Assembly: GCA_963736855.1 (NCBI GenBank)
Contig: CAVTQK010000015.1
Location: 704,001 to 768,000, forward strand
Reading direction: 5' to 3'
DNA length: 64,000 nucleotides
Origin: an uncultured delta proteobacterium
Lineage (GTDB): Bacteria; Desulfobacterota; Desulfobacteria; Desulfobacterales; UBA2156
Both the position numbers and the translations under genes were made by a program. Numbering within the stretch: the stretch's first letter is position 1; each line of letters begins with the position of its first letter. Under the pieces are notes generated by a model. It was given only the letters and a program-made list of their open reading frames with translations, ran no database searches and was not told where the DNA came from. Positions 1,861 to 12,198 of this stretch are shown piece by piece.

Positions 1861-1891
1861 AAGACCCATGCGCTACGCATCTTTTTCCTTT
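1853..1891. terminator. Inverted repeat overlapping the stop of the EHD-like gene
   Basis: aaaggaaaaag...atgcg-cta-cgcat-ctttttccttt. Confidence 0.45.
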
Positions 1892-3348
1892 TCTGCGGTC
1901 AGGGCGGCCAAGAATGGACCCGGCGGGTCGATGATGGGAACATCGGGTCGCAGGGAGGCTAACTCATTGAGAGATTCCCGGATCTCCTTGGAGCCTCGTT
2001 CAAATACTACCCGAACGGTTTCCAGGTCCTGTTTTACTTCTCCGGTGGAGAAGCGACCCGAAGTCTTTTCCAAATACGTTAGGACAAGTTCACGAATGGC
2101 CTGCCAGGTATCCCGGCGGCTTTGATTGTCCTTTGTCGTCAATGTGTCGATGTTAGTAAGTGCCCTGCGATGAAAGCGTTTGCGCAGGAGCTTCGTCATG
2201 ACAGCCAGCCACAGGATTATCAGTGCTACGGCAATGCCGGTGCCGATCAGGACGAGAAGGGAAAAGTCTCCCACCGCGCTGCTGGTGGCAAGCAGAGAGG
2301 TGCCGGCTGCAGCGCCGACCAGGCTGATGAACACTCCGATCAGTGTGTGCCTGAGAGTGGCCTTTCGGAATTGTCTTCGATAACTGAAGAGCGCTTCCAG
2401 AAAATGGCTCAATCTCTCGCTGTGGGTTTCCACGAATGTAGCCAGGTTGTCCAGGCGATATCGGGGGGCCTCCAGGACGGCTTTTTTCAGGTCCTCCCGC
2501 TGGTTTTCGAGATATTTCAAGAATCCAAGATCATGACTCTGAAGGTTTTGCGACGCCATCAGGGCTCGTGGAGAATAGGTCAGATGGATCATCGGAATGT
2601 CTTTTCGGCCCGTGATCTGGGAAAGGTTCCAACACAAGGTGCCGTAAACCCGAAGCAGGTCGTTTAAGGAGCCGCATTCATCGATACGGTTGAGAACGAA
2701 GAGGATCCTGTCCTCAAAAGTGCGGGAGGGGAGGGTATCCCGCAGGCTGGTATGGGTTTCCCGAACGGTGCCGGCTTTGTGGGGATCGAACAGGACCAGG
2801 ATCAAATCGGCCATTTGGGCCAGGTCGCCGATAACCTCCTGATAGTTGTATCCACGGTCCCGCTCCGTGATGCTGTCCAGCATACCGGGGGTGTCGATGA
2901 GGGCCAGCGTATTGAGGAAAGGGGATGCGACTCGTTTAAGACGAAAGTGCGCTGAAAATCGCTGCCCGTGTTTTTTCAGCGATTCAAAGGGAAATTCGGG
3001 ATCGTTGAGCAGATACTTGCCGTCTCGTTCTTCCGTGACACGAATGGGTCCGTCGTCGGGCTGCTTTTCATCCATTGTGATGACAGTGAAAGAGTCATCC
3101 GTAGGCGCTTGCCCGGTAGCCTGGATATCGGCTCCCAGGAATTCATTGATCAAAGCGGATTTGCCGGAGGAGTAATTACCTATTACCAGGACCAGAGGGC
3201 GCCATTTGATGCTCGTCTCCAGGGGTGCTTCACTATAAGAATAACGCAGAGCCACCGGTGTCAGGAGATCCCGAACCATCTCCTGGAGCTCGGAACGCAG
3301 GGCATTGATATAATTTTCACGATAAATCTGCATGGGCAAAGGTGGCAA
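1873..3348 (-). CDS. Dynamin-superfamily NTPase, EHD/sarcalumenin-like, with C-terminal transmembrane hairpin
   Basis: P-loop GNYSSGKS, TGQAPTDDSF, IDTPG, RGYNY, LFDPHK, VLNRID and LLRVYGTLCWNL, plus two hydrophobic helices (TLIGVFISLVGAAAG; LLVLIGTGIAVALIILWLAVM). Confidence 0.85.
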   Translation of the reverse strand: MPPLPMQIYRENYINALRSELQEMVRDLLTPVALRYSYSEAPLETSIKWRPLVLVIGNYSSGKSALINEFLGADIQATGQAPTDDSFTVITMDEKQPDDGPIRVTEERDGKYLLNDPEFPFESLKKHGQRFSAHFRLKRVASPFLNTLALIDTPGMLDSITERDRGYNYQEVIGDLAQMADLILVLFDPHKAGTVRETHTSLRDTLPSRTFEDRILFVLNRIDECGSLNDLLRVYGTLCWNLSQITGRKDIPMIHLTYSPRALMASQNLQSHDLGFLKYLENQREDLKKAVLEAPRYRLDNLATFVETHSERLSHFLEALFSYRRQFRKATLRHTLIGVFISLVGAAAGTSLLATSSAVGDFSLLVLIGTGIAVALIILWLAVMTKLLRKRFHRRALTNIDTLTTKDNQSRRDTWQAIRELVLTYLEKTSGRFSTGEVKQDLETVRVVFERGSKEIRESLNELASLRPDVPIIDPPGPFLAALTAEKEKDA

Positions 3349-3723: not shown

Positions 3724-3800
3724 TGGTCGGGAAGACTGGATTTGAACCAGCGACCCCAGCGTCCCGAACGCTGTGCTCTACCAGACTGAGCCACTTCCCG
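3724..3800 (-). tRNA. tRNA-Pro(CGG)
   Basis: Reverse complement is CGGGAAGTGGCTCAGTCTGGTAGAGCACAGCGTT-CGG-GACGCTGGGGTCGCTGGTTCAAATCCAGTCTTCCCGACCA: full cloverleaf with encoded CCA. Confidence 0.97.
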
Positions 3801-3801
3801 A

Positions 3802-4854
3802 CTATGTTTGCTGCTTATGCGTATCAATACTTTGGGAAAATGTATTTTCCCCGGTCAGATTCAGCCCCGGCATTCGGGATACCAGGGCGCGGGCGGTGTC
3901 GATATCGGTATGGCCATAGACCCTGAGCGTGGTGTCTTCTCTTGAGTGCCCAGCCATTTTCGACACGGTTTTCAAATCACCCTCTCTGATTAAATTCGTG
4001 ATGGCGGCGTGCCGGAGATCGTAAAGTCTCAATCTCCGGGTTATCCCCGCACGTTTCTTGGCCCGATTCCAGGCGGTTTTCAATGAGCCGATCCCCTTTC
4101 CCCGCCATTTGATGATCGGTCCGGATTCGGGCTTCCCGTCAGCTTCATGCCACATTCTGAGATGAGATTCAAGCTCTTTGTGTAAAGGCGGCATCCGATT
4201 TCTCGGACCTCCTTTTGAGGCGCCGTGGATGGTGATCGTCTGTCTGTTAAAGTCGATCCTATCCCATGTTAATCGGTTGAGTTCGGACAAGCCCGGTTTG
4301 GCCTCGGTATAATACGCCAGGAGAAGGGCGCGGCGGAATTGGGGGCTGACGCTGTTCCAGATCCGCTTGACCTCGTCAGGGGTTGGAGGCTGAATAATGG
4401 CGTCGTCCCGCTGGGGTTTGCGGTATCCGGCAACCGGATTCTTCAGGGGGTATTTACGGCTGACGGCCCAATTGAGGCTGGTTTGGATATCGGCCAGTTC
4501 CCTGCAGACGGTCACTTGTTTGACGGATTCCAGGCGTTTCGAAACGAAAAAATCCAGGGTGGAAGGATCCAAAGCGGCGGCGGGGATGTGTCCGATCAAC
4601 GGATTGATGACCGATTTGAATTTGTAATCCCAGGTTATGGATGTCATCTCTGCCACCGATCCGTATTTGGCGGTGACAAATAGATTAACAAGTTCGCTGA
4701 ACGTGGCCCCTGTTCGGTTGCGGGAGCCGGCTGATTTCAACGACGCATCGAAGGTCATGGCGTCGGTTTCGGTGGCGAAGTAGCGGCGTTTCCGTTTGCC
4801 TTTGATGTAATAGGCGGCAAACCATTTTCCGTGGCGGGTTTGATGGACGGACAT
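3802..4854 (-). CDS. Tyrosine recombinase / phage integrase (first catalytic Arg apparently lost)
   Basis: N-terminal arm-binding-like region (GKWFAAYYIKGKRKRRYF), RLYDLRH, AGHS and YGH. The box I position reads YTEAKPG instead of TGxR. Confidence 0.9.
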   Translation of the reverse strand: MSVHQTRHGKWFAAYYIKGKRKRRYFATETDAMTFDASLKSAGSRNRTGATFSELVNLFVTAKYGSVAEMTSITWDYKFKSVINPLIGHIPAAALDPSTLDFFVSKRLESVKQVTVCRELADIQTSLNWAVSRKYPLKNPVAGYRKPQRDDAIIQPPTPDEVKRIWNSVSPQFRRALLLAYYTEAKPGLSELNRLTWDRIDFNRQTITIHGASKGGPRNRMPPLHKELESHLRMWHEADGKPESGPIIKWRGKGIGSLKTAWNRAKKRAGITRRLRLYDLRHAAITNLIREGDLKTVSKMAGHSREDTTLRVYGHTDIDTARALVSRMPGLNLTGENTFSQSIDTHKQQT

Positions 4855-4863
4855 CAGTATTTA

Positions 4864-5331
4864 TTATCTTTTTCGCGTGGGAGGTTTTCCCCTATCGAAT
4901 TTTGCTTTGAGTTTTGATATCGAGTCAACGATTCCAGGCCGCAATAATCGCCGAAAAACGGGTTCTATATTATTATCTTCGGATGCAAATAAGCAGCTAA
5001 TTATTTCTTCTGTCAATTTGGCATCAAGGGTTCCCTCGAAGGTAATATCCGGATCATTGCTGATATCGTTTGCCGGAATCGGATATCTTTCCCAAAGTTG
5101 GACCCAAGTATCGAGAGGAAAGAATGCTTTATTGGAAGGAATGAAAAAGAGACTGAGTTCTTTGATACAGCCCGGCACCCGGGGCTTATTTTTCTGTTTT
5201 GAAGTGGTTTTAACAAAAAGGTAGGGTTCGTTGTTGCCGGGGGTGTTTAAAAGGATCAAATATTTATTGCCTATGACCCCGTTTTTAAAGACGAGATGTC
5301 TATGTTGAAAAATATCTCCACGCGAATGCAA
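4864..5331 (-). CDS. Putative toxin of a Panacea TA pair, possibly PemK/MazF-like fold
   Basis: The TTG start directly follows the antitoxin stop. RGDIF...KYLILLN...VKTTSK pattern resembles the PemK-like beta barrel. Confidence 0.5.
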   Translation of the reverse strand: MHSRGDIFQHRHLVFKNGVIGNKYLILLNTPGNNEPYLFVKTTSKQKNKPRVPGCIKELSLFFIPSNKAFFPLDTWVQLWERYPIPANDISNDPDITFEGTLDAKLTEEIISCLFASEDNNIEPVFRRLLRPGIVDSISKLKAKFDRGKPPTRKR

Positions 5332-5892
5332 TCATTTAACTCCAAAAAGTTTATACATTTCCTCTCGCTCTTCAACGCGTTCCCTGATTTCTTCAGGAGA
5401 TAACCTAACAACATCACTATCAATTGCCAGCATGTAATCGATTTTTTGGTACTCTCCTTTTTCCCTTAGAGTTTTGTCCCAAGGTTCATTTTTTAGGTGT
5501 GTGGATTCAATCATTGCATCTGCTTTGGTGTCATAAAAGACGAAGGCGATTTCCTCTAAAAGCTGCATCTCTTTTTTAGTAAAATAGAGATCAGAAAATT
5601 TTTTTCGTGGCTGGATTTTTTGAAAGGTCTCTTCTGAAGACAAATCGTGAATGGATTCAATCAAATCCGGCTTCATTTTTCCGGAAATCTCCTCGTAGAG
5701 ATCTTTTGGTACCGGCCCCATTTTCCACGCGAAATACTCGAGGCCGGTAACAGATTTGCCGTTCTCCTTGAAGTGTCTGAAATCTAAGAAGTACAACAGC
5801 TTAAGAAGTTTTGTTTTGCCGCAATACAGGGTATTTTTGGCAAAGTAAATGATGGCGTTTATTAATTTTTCTCTATGATAGGTAATAATCAT
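5332..5892 (-). CDS. Panacea-domain (DUF4065/SocA/GepA) antitoxin
   Basis: KLINAIIYF...KTKLLKLLYFLDF...GKSVTGLEYFAWKMGPVP...STH...PW. Confidence 0.88.
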   Translation of the reverse strand: MIITYHREKLINAIIYFAKNTLYCGKTKLLKLLYFLDFRHFKENGKSVTGLEYFAWKMGPVPKDLYEEISGKMKPDLIESIHDLSSEETFQKIQPRKKFSDLYFTKKEMQLLEEIAFVFYDTKADAMIESTHLKNEPWDKTLREKGEYQKIDYMLAIDSDVVRLSPEEIRERVEEREEMYKLFGVK

Positions 5893-5898
5893 ATTAAT

Positions 5899-5927
5899 AT
5901 CTTAGTACGCAAGTGTCAGAAAGTCAA
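5899..5927 (-). promoter_or_regulatory. Sigma70 promoter of the PanAT operon, probably leaderless
   Basis: TTGACT-17 bp-TAAGAT, ending 6 nt before the ATG at 5892, with no SD sequence. Confidence 0.6.
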
Positions 5928-5986
5928 ACTCGGCATTGAACGGTCCAGCGCCCGTCTTTGCGGAGATAAACGGCCATGGTCGGCAA

Positions 5987-6565
5987 TCAGTTGGAAATGC
6001 ATTTAAAATATGTTCCGACAATTTTCCAGGTGCCGCCGGCATAAGTGCTTCCGACCCAGTCGGAGCCTTCGAAAATCCTGGAGGCGCTTCCACCGACATT
6101 TTCAACCGAAGTTATAATATTCGTAAAACCGCCCTTGTCGCCGGATAGGGAAATGAAGACCTGAAGCAATTTACAGGCTCCTCCGCCGGATACCCTTCCG
6201 GACACCTTGATCCGGTCTTCGCCTTCTTTGGTTACGCTGATGGAGGAGACCTGATAATCGGCCGCTGCTTTGGCTTTTTCGGCTTCGATCCTCCGAGTCT
6301 GCCGATTCGTTTCTATTTCCTTCATGGAATCCTTATATCGTTCGGTGGCTTTTTCGAGTTTGTCTTTGACGGTTTCGGGCTTTTGCGGAGTATGTGCGGC
6401 TTCGCCCTGTTCCTGGATGTTTTCGGCCTCGGGCGGCGGGGCAGTGTTGGTGACGTGCTTTACTCCGTCCTTATCGGTCCAAATATAGATTTGAGCGAGA
6501 GAGACGGATGGAAATGCAATTGAAATGAGGGATGCTATGAAAAATGCTATAAGTTTGGTTTTCAT
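5987..6565 (-). CDS. Secreted DUF4124-domain protein
   Basis: Signal peptide followed by QIYIWTDKDGVKHVTNTAPP. Confidence 0.8.
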   Translation of the reverse strand: MKTKLIAFFIASLISIAFPSVSLAQIYIWTDKDGVKHVTNTAPPPEAENIQEQGEAAHTPQKPETVKDKLEKATERYKDSMKEIETNRQTRRIEAEKAKAAADYQVSSISVTKEGEDRIKVSGRVSGGGACKLLQVFISLSGDKGGFTNIITSVENVGGSASRIFEGSDWVGSTYAGGTWKIVGTYFKCISN

Positions 6566-6583
6566 GGCGATGCCTCCGTTTGG

Positions 6584-7135
6584 TCATCTATAATTTGTAA
6601 GCCCTTCCCTTGTGGTCCATAATTTTATCCCTTCATAAACGAATTGGGTTTCTCCCCCAAACATACCAGGATGTTCTAGGACGGTCACGGTTATCCCGCT
6701 TTTGATATTAAAGCATTTATTGGATTTAAAGTAGCTGTCGAAACTACCTCGATCTTTTGCTGCTATGAAATGAATCAAATCGTCGAGCCATTCTTTTGTC
6801 CGGCATGCGACACAGTTTTCGCTTGTCGTGGCGATTCCTGTCCCGGAAGGATCGATTCTTTTTTTGGGAGGTTCATAAGAACGAATTGCTTTTTTCGGTT
6901 CCGTAATGGGAAACGTTTCATGTTTTTCTCGAAGGATGTTTTTGACGGTGCTTTTCGGAATGCACTTTTCCTTGCCGTCATGCCAAAAGCATATGTTGTC
7001 CCCGTCTTTCCAGTGGTATTTCGTTTCATAGCTCGTCCCGTCTTCAAGGATGATCGCATACTGGGCAAGGACATGTGGCGCATATCCGATGAGGAAAAAA
7101 ACCGTGGCAATAAAGATTCTACTTTTTATTTTCAT
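6584..7135 (-). CDS. Secreted hypothetical protein
   Basis: Signal peptide (..HVLA/QYAII), 183 aa, RBS aaagga, several Cys. Confidence 0.7.
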   Translation of the reverse strand: MKIKSRIFIATVFFLIGYAPHVLAQYAIILEDGTSYETKYHWKDGDNICFWHDGKEKCIPKSTVKNILREKHETFPITEPKKAIRSYEPPKKRIDPSGTGIATTSENCVACRTKEWLDDLIHFIAAKDRGSFDSYFKSNKCFNIKSGITVTVLEHPGMFGGETQFVYEGIKLWTTREGLTNYR

Positions 7136-7571
7136 GACCTATCCTTTCCACGGACCCACCAAGATCCTTGCCCTCCAGGGTTGATGATTTGCGCGGATGA
7201 TGGCATGGCGTCTCGCCGTTTTCCCTTCGATCGAAAGGAGATTTCCGGCGATTAGGATAGCGCCGACAATAAGGATCTTTCCGATATTTCCATACATGAT
7301 CTCTTTGATGGGTTCCAGGTTGAGTATGGCGCCTACATTTTCAGCCAGTTTATGTAGAGATCCAGGGTATCTCAGGCCGATAAGAAATTTATGTTAGGGA
7401 GATTTTATACAAGAAAGAGTATAAATCAATGGTAAAATTCGTCAGAATGGAAGAAAAGGGGTGAGAATTGAAGCTTTTCCAGGCTTCCATACATTTTACC
7501 TGTGAAATTAAATTCAAAGGAATTACAGAAACTTAAAGGCGAGTGGTACTAAAATCCCGACCGATGTTGAA

Positions 7572-7629: not shown

Positions 7630-9389
<1,760 letters not shown>

Positions 9390-10170: not shown

Positions 10171-11409
10171 CTACAAGCCCGGGACGCGAAGGATTCCCTG
10201 CAGATCTCTGGCTCTGAGGAAGAGCGTACAGGCGTTTGGCGCCTGGTCGCCGCAGAACCGGATCGTCATGCCGTGCGCCAGGGCACCGGATCTTCCAACC
10301 GTGGTGAGCACGACTGCCGAGTCAACGGATGCGTTCATCGTGCAGTCGTTGCTCCTGCAGTGGGACCCCTCGTTCCACGGCTGAGGGATGATGCTGCCGC
10401 CGATCGTGGGGCCCTGGGTCCGCCCATGCACTCTCGAGCCGGATGGGACCAGGCCAAAGGGGTGACCGATCTCGTGGAGCAATACTCGCCTGACATCGAA
10501 GAGCCAGTCGCTGTTGTGCAGATACTGGCTCGACGGCATGCTATTGCAGGCCACAGTAGCTATCGTGTGGCCCGCGACTCCGCGCGCGGAGGTGCCTGCT
10601 GATGCACCCTGCGGCGCCGGCAATCGGTCCACCGCAACGATCCAGAGCTCGCGCTCCGGGAGATCGGATTCGTAGATGCCCTGAGTCAAGGGCCGATCGT
10701 GCGCATAGTTGAAAATCCTCTCTACATCCGACAGGGCCGCGGGGTTCTGGTGCGGTCTCGGAATCGCTGTAACCGGGGTTCCTCAGGGTTGCTCATGTTC
10801 CAGCAGGATGCCGTAATTGTCACGGTAGAAGTCGATCGCGTACTGCAGCACGTTTCTCTCGTCTGCGGTGAGCCTGGTCCCAGGGTCGTTCGTGCTCGGG
10901 AATTGCGTCAGGCTCCATCTCCCGCCGGTTTTGCTCATCTCCACATACCGGAAGATGATTCGTTTTCTGACTGTTATTCGAGCCTCAGGGGCCGGTGACC
11001 CGGCCTGCAGGAAGGTAACGACATACCTGTCGAGGCCGCACCCCGATGTCTTGAAACTCACCGTCGTTCCAGCTCCACTCTGTTGCGTATTCGGAGCGAT
11101 GTAGACTGGACTCCCACTGACAAGGACCGACGTCATATACGTTTCGCCCAGCACATCGTGCGGGACGTTTCTCTGGTCTGCGGCAATTCGCCAGTTTGCG
11201 CCGGGAAGTACGGTGGCGGTGGAGCCAGGGGCAACGGCTCCCTGCTGCATCACTGCGCCTTGCAGGGAAACCGTGATGTCGCGGGCGTTGTCAATGCTGG
11301 ATGAATCGTTCGAGTCCGGCGGTTCATTGATGTAAACATAGTATTCGTTGTTCTCTGGGCTAATGGTACGCCGATGCCCCTGCGCACCCTGCTCGACCGT
11401 TACAGGCAT
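10171..11409 (-). pseudogene. Protein with C-terminal zincin metallopeptidase motif, split by one in-frame TGA (10783-10785)
   Basis: ORFs 10783..11409 and 10171..10689 share a frame, with an open 31-codon linker. HEIGHPFGL and a downstream HC...CTM Met-turn-like motif are present. Confidence 0.6.
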
Positions 11410-11424
11410 TAGCTCCCTCCGAAT

Positions 11425-12198
11425 TCAGCTCTGATGGAGATCACGAAGCCGACCTTGCGTCGCTTCATCGGCCTCTCCCGTGACCGTCAAGCCGTTCTTT
11501 TCCTGAAATGCCCTCAGAGCCGCTTCGAGCGCCGGCGTTGGCTCTTCCGTGAGATCTCCGCACCCGAATCCCAAGTTCGCCAGACGTTGCTTGACGCCGC
11601 TCAGCTCCGATATCGGATTTAGGTGCCCGATTCGGAACTCGAAGACCAGCTCGTTGGGAGTCCCACCGTCAACTACCAGCCTGCCCGCACGCGCATTGGG
11701 CCTGATGCTGCACTCGACGACGCCATCGTCACCCAGATTGCCGCTGGTAAGAACGCCGTCGATCTCTAACGTGTAGGGGGCGTTGGCGCGAGGCGTGCTC
11801 CTCGCCGCCGTCTGAGCCGTCGTGCCTTCTCGACCGGACGTGCCCTGCACCCCCCCAGACGAGGACCGCGCGGCCTGACCGTCCTCTGCCTGCCCATCCT
11901 GCGGCGCCTCACCCTCATACTTCATCACGCGGATGCGGAGCGTCTCCGGCACGCCCTTACGCCTGAACGAATGCCGCTCCTCCGTGGCCCCAGACTCATC
12001 TCTCTCCCTGCGTTCCGGCACGAAGAGCATATCACTGGGATGGAGAACATTGCGATCTGCCCGTCTTCCCTTCAGATCAGCATTGCTGGGATGATCCCAA
12101 ATGGTCTCCGGGAGCAGGCCGTGTCGAAATGCGATGCTGGAAGTGGAATCGCCCTGCCGAACCGTGTACAAACCCATTCCCCCAAAACCCTCCCTCAC
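11425..12198 (-). CDS. LysM-like + C-terminal peptidoglycan-binding (PG_binding_1) protein
   Basis: YTVRQGDSTSSIA...IWDHPSNA...NVLHPSDMLFVP at the N-terminus, and GVKQRLANLGF...ALRAFQEKNGLTVTG at the C-terminus. Confidence 0.85.
   Translation of the reverse strand: MREGFGGMGLYTVRQGDSTSSIAFRHGLLPETIWDHPSNADLKGRRADRNVLHPSDMLFVPERRERDESGATEERHSFRRKGVPETLRIRVMKYEGEAPQDGQAEDGQAARSSSGGVQGTSGREGTTAQTAARSTPRANAPYTLEIDGVLTSGNLGDDGVVECSIRPNARAGRLVVDGGTPNELVFEFRIGHLNPISELSGVKQRLANLGFGCGDLTEEPTPALEAALRAFQEKNGLTVTGEADEATQGRLRDLHQS

What the first reader, a model, noticed from the sequence alone, without database searches (positions are those of the whole stretch)
1873..3348. Bacterial membrane-anchored protein following the eukaryotic EHD (endocytic membrane-remodelling) motif set
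Seen: motifs in order GNYSSGKS, TGQAPTDDSF, EFPFESL, IDTPG, RGYNY, LFDPHK, VLNRID and LLRVYGTLCWNL, then a two-helix TM hairpin. Known: eukaryotic EHD proteins have GQYSTGKT, IGPEPTTDSF, KPF, IDTPG, RGYDF, LFDAHK, VLNKAD and LMRVYGALMWSL, and they are ATP-using membrane tubulators. Classical bacterial dynamin-like proteins (DynA/BDLP) do not share these detailed motifs. Inference: this is an EHD-clade enzyme that lacks the EH domain and is fixed in the membrane. It is a candidate for bacterial membrane remodelling or repair, or for anti-phage defence, and could inform EHD origins.
Basis: partly seen in the sequence, partly recalled or inferred. Interest (0 to 1): 0.72.

Follow-up and report, generated by a model that had tools for sequence, protein, structure and literature searches.

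The report
Bacterial MfnL dynamin, EHD's membrane-anchored cousin
This gene encodes a membrane-anchored, dynamin-like enzyme of an already described family (MfnL, studied in trypanosome mitochondria) that is the closest known relative of the EHD membrane-shaping proteins of eukaryotes, so it is a good bacterial model for them but not a new kind of protein.

Summary
ORF 1873-3348 (-) has all eight motifs in order and a two-helix hydrophobic hairpin. It matches EHD far better than classical bacterial dynamins (profile E 5e-64 vs 4e-7; fold Z 27.5 vs 15-19).

It is not an EHD. It lacks EHD_N, DUF5600 and the EH domain, and lies outside the EHD clade. It belongs to the published MfnL family: it hits proteins named as MfnL by Morel et al., is 33% identical to the T. 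brucei gambiense orthologue, and scores 258 bits full-length on an MfnL profile against 117 on an EHD profile. Bacterial EHD relatives with a transmembrane pair were also reported in 2020 (PMC7016017).

My searches did not find the bridge in print: MfnL is EHD's sister or stem group, keeps EHD's helical domain, dimer tryptophan and PF loop, and carries its hairpin where EHD's lipid-binding loop sits.

The gene is single-copy and stand-alone, with housekeeping neighbours; it is widespread but patchy in Desulfobacterales and was not found on plasmids or phages. Most likely it is a cytoplasm-facing inner-membrane remodeller working like EHD. ATP versus GTP use is open, and defence is weakly supported.

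The parts
1873..3333 (-). Gene for a 486-aa MfnL-family dynamin-superfamily protein (likely ATG start at 3333; the ORF extends to TTG at 3348)
3244..3321 (-). N-terminal helix (res 5-30), equivalent to the N-terminal part of the EHD composite helical domain
   Evidence: AF2 model; aligns to EHD residues from about 15
2473..3204 (-). EHD-type extended G domain (res about 44-287): G1 GNYSSGKS, G2 Thr, G3 DTPG, RGY signature, G4 NRID
   Evidence: Pfam Dynamin_N 66 bits; EHD2 alignment; motif counts
2986..2994 (-). F-P-F loop (res 114-116), counterpart of the EHD KPF oligomerisation loop; the Lys is not kept
   Evidence: role in EHD from PMC9741607
2680..2691 (-). G4 motif N-R-I-D (res 215-218) followed by Glu; Arg replaces the usual Lys in the Desulfobacterales clade (120 of 120)
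2629..2631 (-). Trp235, aligned with the EHD dimer-interface tryptophan; invariant in alignment A1 (122 rows)
2347..2469 (-). Long stalk helix (res 289-329) leading to the membrane
2194..2346 (-). Transmembrane hairpin (res about 330-350 and 359-380), inserted at the position of the EHD helix 8-helix 9 lipid-binding loop
   Evidence: hydropathy; model; profile-profile alignment
1957..2193 (-). C-terminal helices (res 381-459) completing the EHD-like helical domain; no EH domain follows

Best explanation
A stand-alone bacterial member of the MfnL family of dynamin-superfamily proteins, the family most closely related to eukaryotic EHD/RME-1. It is anchored in the cytoplasmic membrane by a hairpin at the tip of its helical domain, with the G domain and C-terminus in the cytoplasm. 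Shown here: the family membership, the EHD-like fold and the position of the hairpin. Inferred by analogy to EHD2/EHD4 and TbMfnL: it dimerises through the Trp235 helix, polymerises through the PF loop and nucleotide-dependent G-G contacts, and so bends, tubulates or branches the inner membrane; nucleotide hydrolysis releases the scaffold. The likely role is non-essential membrane shaping or maintenance. GTP is somewhat more likely than ATP (about 55:45, judgement), because the EH tail that ties up the G4 Asp in EHD2 and the Met after G4 are both absent.
For: The window protein's own search hits P0218 (E 1.9e-42), named JKF63_04376. A second-round search from another of its hits returns TRSC58_06192, TM35_000191450 and DQ04_08691020. 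All four are listed among MfnL sequences in the Fig. S1 legend of the Morel preprint. The T. brucei gambiense protein P0279 has Lys141 in G1, as TbMfnL does, and aligns at 33% identity, E 8e-45. Profile scores: MfnL 258 bits over res 10-463, EHD 117 bits over res 12-244, classical DLP 20 bits. Fold (pLDDT 91.8): EHD4 Z 27.5, rmsd 4.7, 367 aligned, model 6-458 against chain 19-403; Mfn1 19.1, IniA 17.6, SynDLP 16.2, BDLP 15.5. hhalign of the family against EHD gives E 4e-52 over 386 columns, with the hairpin as an insertion at the EHD tip loop, which is EHD's membrane-inserting site (PMC9741607). TbMfnL needs its G1 Lys and its TMs to branch the mitochondrial inner membrane. Recurrent neighbours are housekeeping genes and there is no second dynamin gene in 81 loci. 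The gene lies next to iorA in 4 close relatives and outside the tRNA-Pro-linked insertion.
Against: No bacterial member has been tested (the preprint says so), so every mechanistic step is analogy. TbMfnL inactivation or silencing did not alter mitochondrial shape (section title); the phenotype comes from overexpression. The KPF Lys and the canonical G4 Lys are not kept in this clade. The distribution is patchy: 16 of 401 genomes of the phylum have a full-length match, which also fits an accessory stress or defence gene. MfnL monophyly is not firmly resolved: EHD nested inside at 84/97 in one tree and was sister at 92/84 in the other; AU p = 0.074.
Confidence: 0.62

Rival explanations
1. A membrane-fusion or tethering enzyme that works like mitofusin, atlastin or BDLP: TM-anchored protomers on facing membranes join through their G domains and pull the membranes together (repair, vesicle fusion).
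For: [quoted passage not shown] Mitofusins are the next-best folds, Z 17-19. TbMfnL overexpression increases junctions.
Against: Sequence and fold are much nearer EHD. At 486 aa it is shorter than the roughly 590-750 aa classical DLPs seen here. The EHD dimer Trp is invariant, which suggests a constitutive G-domain dimer rather than free monomers.
Confidence: 0.2
2. An anti-phage or envelope-stress defence protein, like Eleos (LeoA/LeoBC) or DynA (DynA's role in phage and antibiotic damage is recalled; the preprint mentions such surveillance roles).
For: Patchy distribution. Weak PADLOC hits to LeoA (1.8e-8) and LeoBC (5.3e-6). LeoBC profiles also reach human EHDs (bioRxiv 10.1101/2022.12.12.520048). 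An integrase plus Panacea-antitoxin element lies 450 bp upstream in this genome. SPFH and NfeD genes are near the gene in 9 and 8 of 81 loci.
Against: No two-gene system. 1 of 73 recurrent neighbour ORFs hit PADLOC, an ATPase-type match. No match in 72,556 plasmids, 50,697 phages or IMG/VR. The element is absent between purA and tRNA-Pro in L002, while the gene-iorA pair is conserved. One-off neighbours were not scanned.
Confidence: 0.13
3. A true EHD, acquired from a eukaryote or giant virus, that lost the EH domain and gained a membrane anchor.
For: EHDs are the best solved relatives. EH-less true EHDs exist, for example in a giant-virus contig (L081).
Against: No EHD_N, DUF5600 or EH hit in the protein or in 99 representatives scanned. 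It lies outside the EHD clade in both trees. The family is deep and diverse in bacteria.
Confidence: 0.05

Closest known systems
MfnL family (TbMfnL, Tb927.7.2410; Morel et al., bioRxiv 10.1101/2023.06.28.546890; cited as Curr Biol 2025 in PMC12699882)
   Same: G1-G4 domain followed by two adjacent C-proximal TM helices; bacterial members lack the targeting peptide; full-length profile match of 258 bits; family motifs shared (GN[YH]S[SA]GKS, PTDD, RGY, YG.LCWNL, KD.P, late Trp).
   Different: It belongs to a bacterial GNYS/NRxD subclade, whereas named eukaryotic members have GNHS/NKxD. Desulfobacterales are not mentioned in the preprint's main text (its tree figure was not visible). No MTS.
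EHD/RME-1 ATPases (EHD2, EHD4; PDB 2qpt, 4cid, 5mtv, 7sox)
   Same: Extended G domain, composite helical domain, RGY signature, PF loop and dimer Trp; about 20% structural identity over 350-375 residues.
   Different: No EH domain, no EHD_N or DUF5600 match; a TM hairpin replaces the peripheral lipid-binding loop; G4 is NRIDE; separate clade.
Bacterial relatives of EHD/sarcalumenin with a TM pair (PMC7016017, Front Genet 2020)
   Same: [quoted passage not shown]
   Different: The accession list was in a part of the supplement that was cut, so identity with this exact subclade (rather than the L098-type clade) is inferred from the description. No structure or link to TbMfnL was seen in the section read.
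Classical bacterial dynamin-like proteins (BDLP, Cj-DLP1/2, DynA, LeoA, IniA, SynDLP) and mitofusins
   Same: [quoted passage not shown]
   Different: Profile E 4e-7 or weaker against 5e-64 for EHD; Z 15-19 against 24-27.5; longer proteins; often paired genes (this genome has such a pair elsewhere, on C21); long branch in the trees.

Membership tests
MfnL | GTPase domain with G1-G4 motifs | tested here: met
MfnL | Two consecutive C-proximal TM helices | tested here: met
   Hydropathy and model; a hydrophobic peak in 120 of 120 close homologues, 94 of 99 representatives, 87 of 105 second-round MfnL hits. Predicted, not measured.
MfnL | Homology along the whole TbMfnL protein, not only the G domain | tested here: met
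   Profile of 60 second-round MfnL hits covers res 10-463, 258 bits; BLASTP to P0279 33% over res 15-355
MfnL | No mitochondrial targeting peptide in prokaryotic members | tested here: met
   The N-terminal helix starts at res 5 and G1 at res 52, against Lys141 in P0279
MfnL | Groups with named MfnL proteins to the exclusion of EHD | tested here: inconclusive
   Yes at 92/84; EHD nested at 84/97; monophyly not rejected, AU p 0.074
MfnL | Inner-membrane location and nucleotide-dependent membrane branching | not testable with these tools
   Shown only for TbMfnL
EHD/RME-1 | EHD-type G domain with signature motif | tested here: met
EHD/RME-1 | Composite helical domain from N- and C-terminal flanks of the G domain | tested here: met
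   VIA-align model 6-458 against EHD4 19-403, Z 27.5, rmsd 4.7, 367 aligned; hhalign
EHD/RME-1 | EH domain | tested here: not met
   No EF-hand/EH Pfam hit; the model ends in helices
EHD/RME-1 | EHD_N (PF16880) and DUF5600 (PF18150) profiles | tested here: not met
   Absent at E 0.1; present in the true EHD control L081
EHD/RME-1 | Peripheral lipid-binding loop between helices 8 and 9 | tested here: not met
   Replaced by the TM hairpin; 3 of 118 EHDs have a comparable hydrophobic peak
EHD/RME-1 | Dimer-interface Trp and KPF loop | tested here: inconclusive
   Trp kept (120 of 120, 102 of 102, 104 of 105); Pro of the loop kept in 120 of 120 close homologues, Lys not. Residues only; oligomer state is not known.
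EHD/RME-1 | ATP rather than GTP as substrate | not testable with these tools
   The Met after G4 invoked for EHD2 (PMC5084822) is Glu here, but only 38 of 118 EHDs have it
EHD/RME-1 | Falls inside the EHD clade | tested here: not met
   14 EHDs monophyletic without it, 99/100 and 99/92
Classical BDLP/DynA/LeoA (incl. Eleos) | Curated family model cut-off | tested here: not met
   DynA model 14 bits (cut-off 1600), LeoA model 13 bits (cut-off 325); PADLOC LeoA/LeoBC 32 and 24 bits, partial
Classical BDLP/DynA/LeoA (incl. Eleos) | Adjacent second dynamin-like gene | tested here: not met
   None among 2532 ORFs from 81 loci; many loci are cut short by contig ends

The most novel reading that the evidence does not exclude
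MfnL is not mitofusin-like but the membrane-anchored sister or stem group of EHD, and it works by the EHD mechanism (Trp-helix dimer, PF-loop filament), possibly with ATP. Eukaryotes would then hold two descendants of one bacterial lineage: cytosolic EHD, which swapped the hairpin for a short lipid-dipping loop and gained an EH domain, and mitochondrial-matrix MfnL, which kept the hairpin. The 486-aa bacterial protein would be the minimal ancestral machine, and some bacteria may pair it with catalytically dead paralogues.
Probability: 0.4. Interest if true: 0.6.

Novelty: new member of a known kind. Interest (0 to 1): 0.36.

Why it matters
The family and its bacterial EHD connection are each in print, but in two literatures that, as far as my searches reach, do not meet. 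Joining them gives structure-based predictions for an uncharacterised bacterial protein and for the mitochondrial MfnL of protists: which residues make the dimer and filament, where the membrane anchor sits, and whether the substrate is ATP or GTP. It also makes one step of eukaryote evolution testable, namely how a peripheral endocytic tubulator arose from an integral bacterial membrane protein. The gene itself is an ordinary member of a family with at least 194 matching stretches in the GTDB scan.

Tried and rejected
Complex prediction of two copies (res 4-462): no verdict, score 0.26 against a mark of 0.42; not used for or against.

Sequencing runs: no RNA holder listed; no reads were laid.

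Conserved antisense ORFs in 70 of 81 loci: rejected as shadows of the coding frame, since their positions vary and nearly all overlap the gene.

Gene as cargo of the tRNA-Pro integrase element: rejected by synteny.

Mobile copies: none in IMG/VR, plasmids or phages.

Taxonomy of the unnamed 50%-identity representatives could not be looked up, so which 'rep' rows are bacterial rests on the Atlas listings and on names.

The accession list of bacterial EHD relatives in the PMC7016017 supplement was cut when stored. Supplements and figures of the Morel preprint were not visible; its tree may contain Desulfobacterales.

Tree limits: G domain only (214 columns). Outgroups were 8 classical DLPs of one family, then 6 of them plus L117. 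L113, L114 and L127 were dropped because my G4-based slicing found no motif. Of 158 sliced rows, 4 short ones, two thirds of the representatives and 20 near-redundant rows were left out for run time (72 kept); 10 more were dropped and 5 added for the second tree (67). Sarcalumenin, mitofusin, DynA, IniA and LeoA were not in the trees, only in the PDB sequence, fold and family-model comparisons. Some position labels printed are offset (PF loop, res 253-254); the residues quoted in this report are the true ones.

Neighbours: 73 of 96 recurrent ORF clusters were scanned with PADLOC and 35 with Pfam.

Literature searches: 'bacterial EHD' 0 papers; 'MfnL'+'EHD' 3 listings, all on unrelated subjects by title; 'EHD-like'+bacteria 1 review whose single use refers to plants; some searches gave PMC7016017 as the only direct prior statement. 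Most subscription papers, including the Curr Biol version of Morel et al. and Leipe et al. 2002, were not searched.

Full report
Observation. The window holds a 491-codon ORF at 1873-3348 on the minus strand. Close homologues are 486-487 aa long, so the real start is probably the ATG at 3333; numbering below is for that 486-aa form. Against solved structures, 6 of 7 phmmer hits are EHD2/EHD4 (best E 1.6e-28) and the only bacterial dynamin is at 5.4e-5. Pfam sees only Dynamin_N and MMR_HSR1 above cut-off. NCBIfam DynA and LeoA models score 14 and 13 bits, far under their cut-offs.

Distribution and context. Of 248 pattern matches in GTDB contigs, 194 encode a relative; the best 80 are 60-93% identical and almost all labelled Desulfobacterales or Deltaproteobacteria. 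In an even sample of the phylum, 16 of 401 genomes (this one included) have a full-length match at E below 1e-140, one has a divergent match at 2e-32, and the other 41 genomes with a match have only weak hits, mostly to roughly 600-aa classical DLPs. Among listed genomes of the same order, 5 of 14 carry it. The gene is single-copy here; other Dynamin_N genes, including a pair, lie on contig C21. In 81 loci there is no second dynamin gene among 2532 ORFs. The commonest neighbour occurs in only 24 loci, and recurrent neighbours are housekeeping genes; 1 of 73 scanned hit PADLOC. An integrase, a Panacea-domain antitoxin and other ORFs lie beyond tRNA-Pro, 450 bp upstream. In L002, purA lies next to tRNA-Pro without that element, while the gene-iorA pair is kept in L001, L002, L003 and L013. 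The gene is therefore backbone, not cargo. No copies were found in IMG/VR, plasmids or phages.

Which family. A search of 1.84 billion representatives gave 177 hits below 1e-30; the best 150 were listed. None of the 99 longer ones scanned has EHD_N, DUF5600 or an EH domain, and 94 of 99 aligned ones have the hydrophobic segment. One direct hit, P0218, is JKF63_04376. A second search from hit P0241 returned TRSC58_06192, TM35_000191450, DQ04_08691020 and a T. brucei gambiense protein. The four locus tags are in the Fig. S1 legend of Morel et al. (bioRxiv 10.1101/2023.06.28.546890; I read the abstract, sections 5, 9, 11 part 1 and 30, and passages). The T. brucei gambiense protein has Lys141 in G1, the residue mutated in that paper, and aligns to the window protein at 33% identity, E 8e-45. 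The preprint defines MfnL as a new dynamin-superfamily group with G1-G4 and two C-terminal TMs, found in protists and in bacteria (mainly PVC and Proteobacteria), and says the bacterial members are uncharacterised. The window protein scores 258 bits over res 10-463 on a profile of 60 second-round MfnL hits, 117 bits over res 12-244 on a profile of 60 EHDs, and 20 bits on a profile of 13 classical DLPs. It is an MfnL.

Relation to EHD. True EHDs were obtained through an EH-less EHD on a giant-virus contig. The trypanosome MfnL itself has EHD2/EHD4 as its best solved relatives (E 4e-30). The family profile gives EHD2 5e-64 against 4e-7 and 3e-6 for Cj-DLP and BDLP. The AlphaFold model (pLDDT 91.8) aligns to EHD4 with Z 27.5, rmsd 4.7 over 367 residues, spanning model 6-458 and chain 19-403, that is the G domain plus the whole helical domain. 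Mitofusin-1 scores 19.1, IniA 17.6, SynDLP 16.2 and BDLP 15.5. Profile-profile alignment (E 4e-52, 386 columns) places the hairpin as an insertion at the EHD tip loop, the helix 8-helix 9 loop that inserts into the bilayer in membrane-bound EHD4 (PMC9741607, passages). The Trp of the EHD-specific dimer interface is kept in 120 of 120, 102 of 102 and 104 of 105 MfnL rows and 118 of 118 EHDs; the Pro of the KPF loop is kept in the Desulfobacterales clade but the Lys is not. In G-domain trees, EHD and MfnL are separated from the sampled classical DLPs at 100/100 and 98/98, and EHDs are monophyletic without the window protein (99/100, 99/92). EHD is nested within MfnL at 84/97 in one tree and sister at 92/84 in the other; MfnL monophyly is not rejected (AU p 0.074). 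The outgroup is narrow and on a very long branch, so the root is unsure.

Prior art on the EHD link. Its accession list was cut from the stored supplement, so the match to this subclade is by description. The Morel preprint has no occurrence of EHD, EH domain, Eps15 or sarcalumenin in its main text and used no EHD outgroup. A 2026 EHD review has no passage on prokaryotic homologues among those found (PMC13282721, passages), and the MidX paper mentions neither (PMC10280142, passages). Searches for the link found nothing relevant, but subscription papers were out of reach.

Mechanism. Shown: family, fold and hairpin position. Taken from papers: TbMfnL is an integral inner-membrane protein facing the matrix whose overexpression branches the mitochondrion, needing its G1 Lys and its TMs; EHDs dimerise through the Trp helix and form filaments through the KPF loop and the G interface. 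Inferred: the bacterial protein sits in the cytoplasmic membrane facing the cytoplasm and bends or branches it as a nucleotide-timed scaffold (confidence 0.62). Fusion in the manner of mitofusin or BDLP is the main rival (0.2); defence is weaker (0.13); a degenerate true EHD is unlikely (0.05). Nucleotide choice is open. The EHD2 explanation for ATP use invokes the EH tail and a Met after G4 (PMC5084822, passages); both are absent here, yet only 38 of 118 EHDs have that Met.

Verdict. A real and well-read observation of a protein that belongs to a known family. The added value is the explicit, structure-level bridge between MfnL and EHD. Novelty: new member of a known kind. Interest 0.36.

Noticed in passing
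L098:1330-2817 (G319), L118-L124: A second, more divergent bacterial clade with an EHD/MfnL-like G domain and TM hairpin (59 bits on the MfnL profile, 31 on the EHD profile); long branch, placement unstable between the two trees.
   Followed up: partly
P0147, P0148, P0165, P0171, P0224: MfnL-like proteins with degenerate G1/G2/G3 motifs but intact helical region and hairpin: candidate pseudo-enzyme paralogues. Genomic context unknown.
   Followed up: no
L081:1991-3193 (-): A giant-virus MAG contig encodes a true EHD (EHD_N, Dynamin_N, DUF5600) of 400 aa without an EH domain.
   Followed up: partly
window 3724-7500: tRNA-Pro followed by a tyrosine integrase (3802-4854), an unknown 155-aa ORF (4864-5331) with no Pfam, NCBIfam or PADLOC hit, a SocA/Panacea antitoxin (5332-5892) and two small ORFs with signal-peptide-like starts. 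Absent between purA and tRNA-Pro in L002, so probably an integrated element; the 155-aa ORF may be the cognate toxin.
   Followed up: partly
window 7630-8920 (-): An adenylosuccinate-synthetase-like gene (recognised by eye) is split over two overlapping ORFs: a frameshift or an assembly error.
   Followed up: no
window about 30800-64000 (to the end of contig C15): GC jumps from about 52% to 69-75% and stays there for the last 57 kb of the contig, the only such block in the genome. Possibly a misjoined foreign contig; it lies 27 kb from the gene studied.
   Followed up: partly
window 10171-12198 (-): A roughly 61% GC patch with a LysM-like plus peptidoglycan-binding ORF (11425-12198, recognised by eye) and neighbours of unknown function.
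   Followed up: no
L051:4425-5381, L036:3272-3865 and related loci: SPFH (band 7) and NfeD genes lie 1.5-2 kb upstream on the same strand in 9 and 8 of 81 loci, probably one related subgroup; a possible link to membrane microdomains.
   Followed up: no
G000 C21 (L113, L114, L117): The genome also encodes three further Dynamin_N proteins (748, 653 and 605 aa), two of them adjacent.
   Followed up: partly
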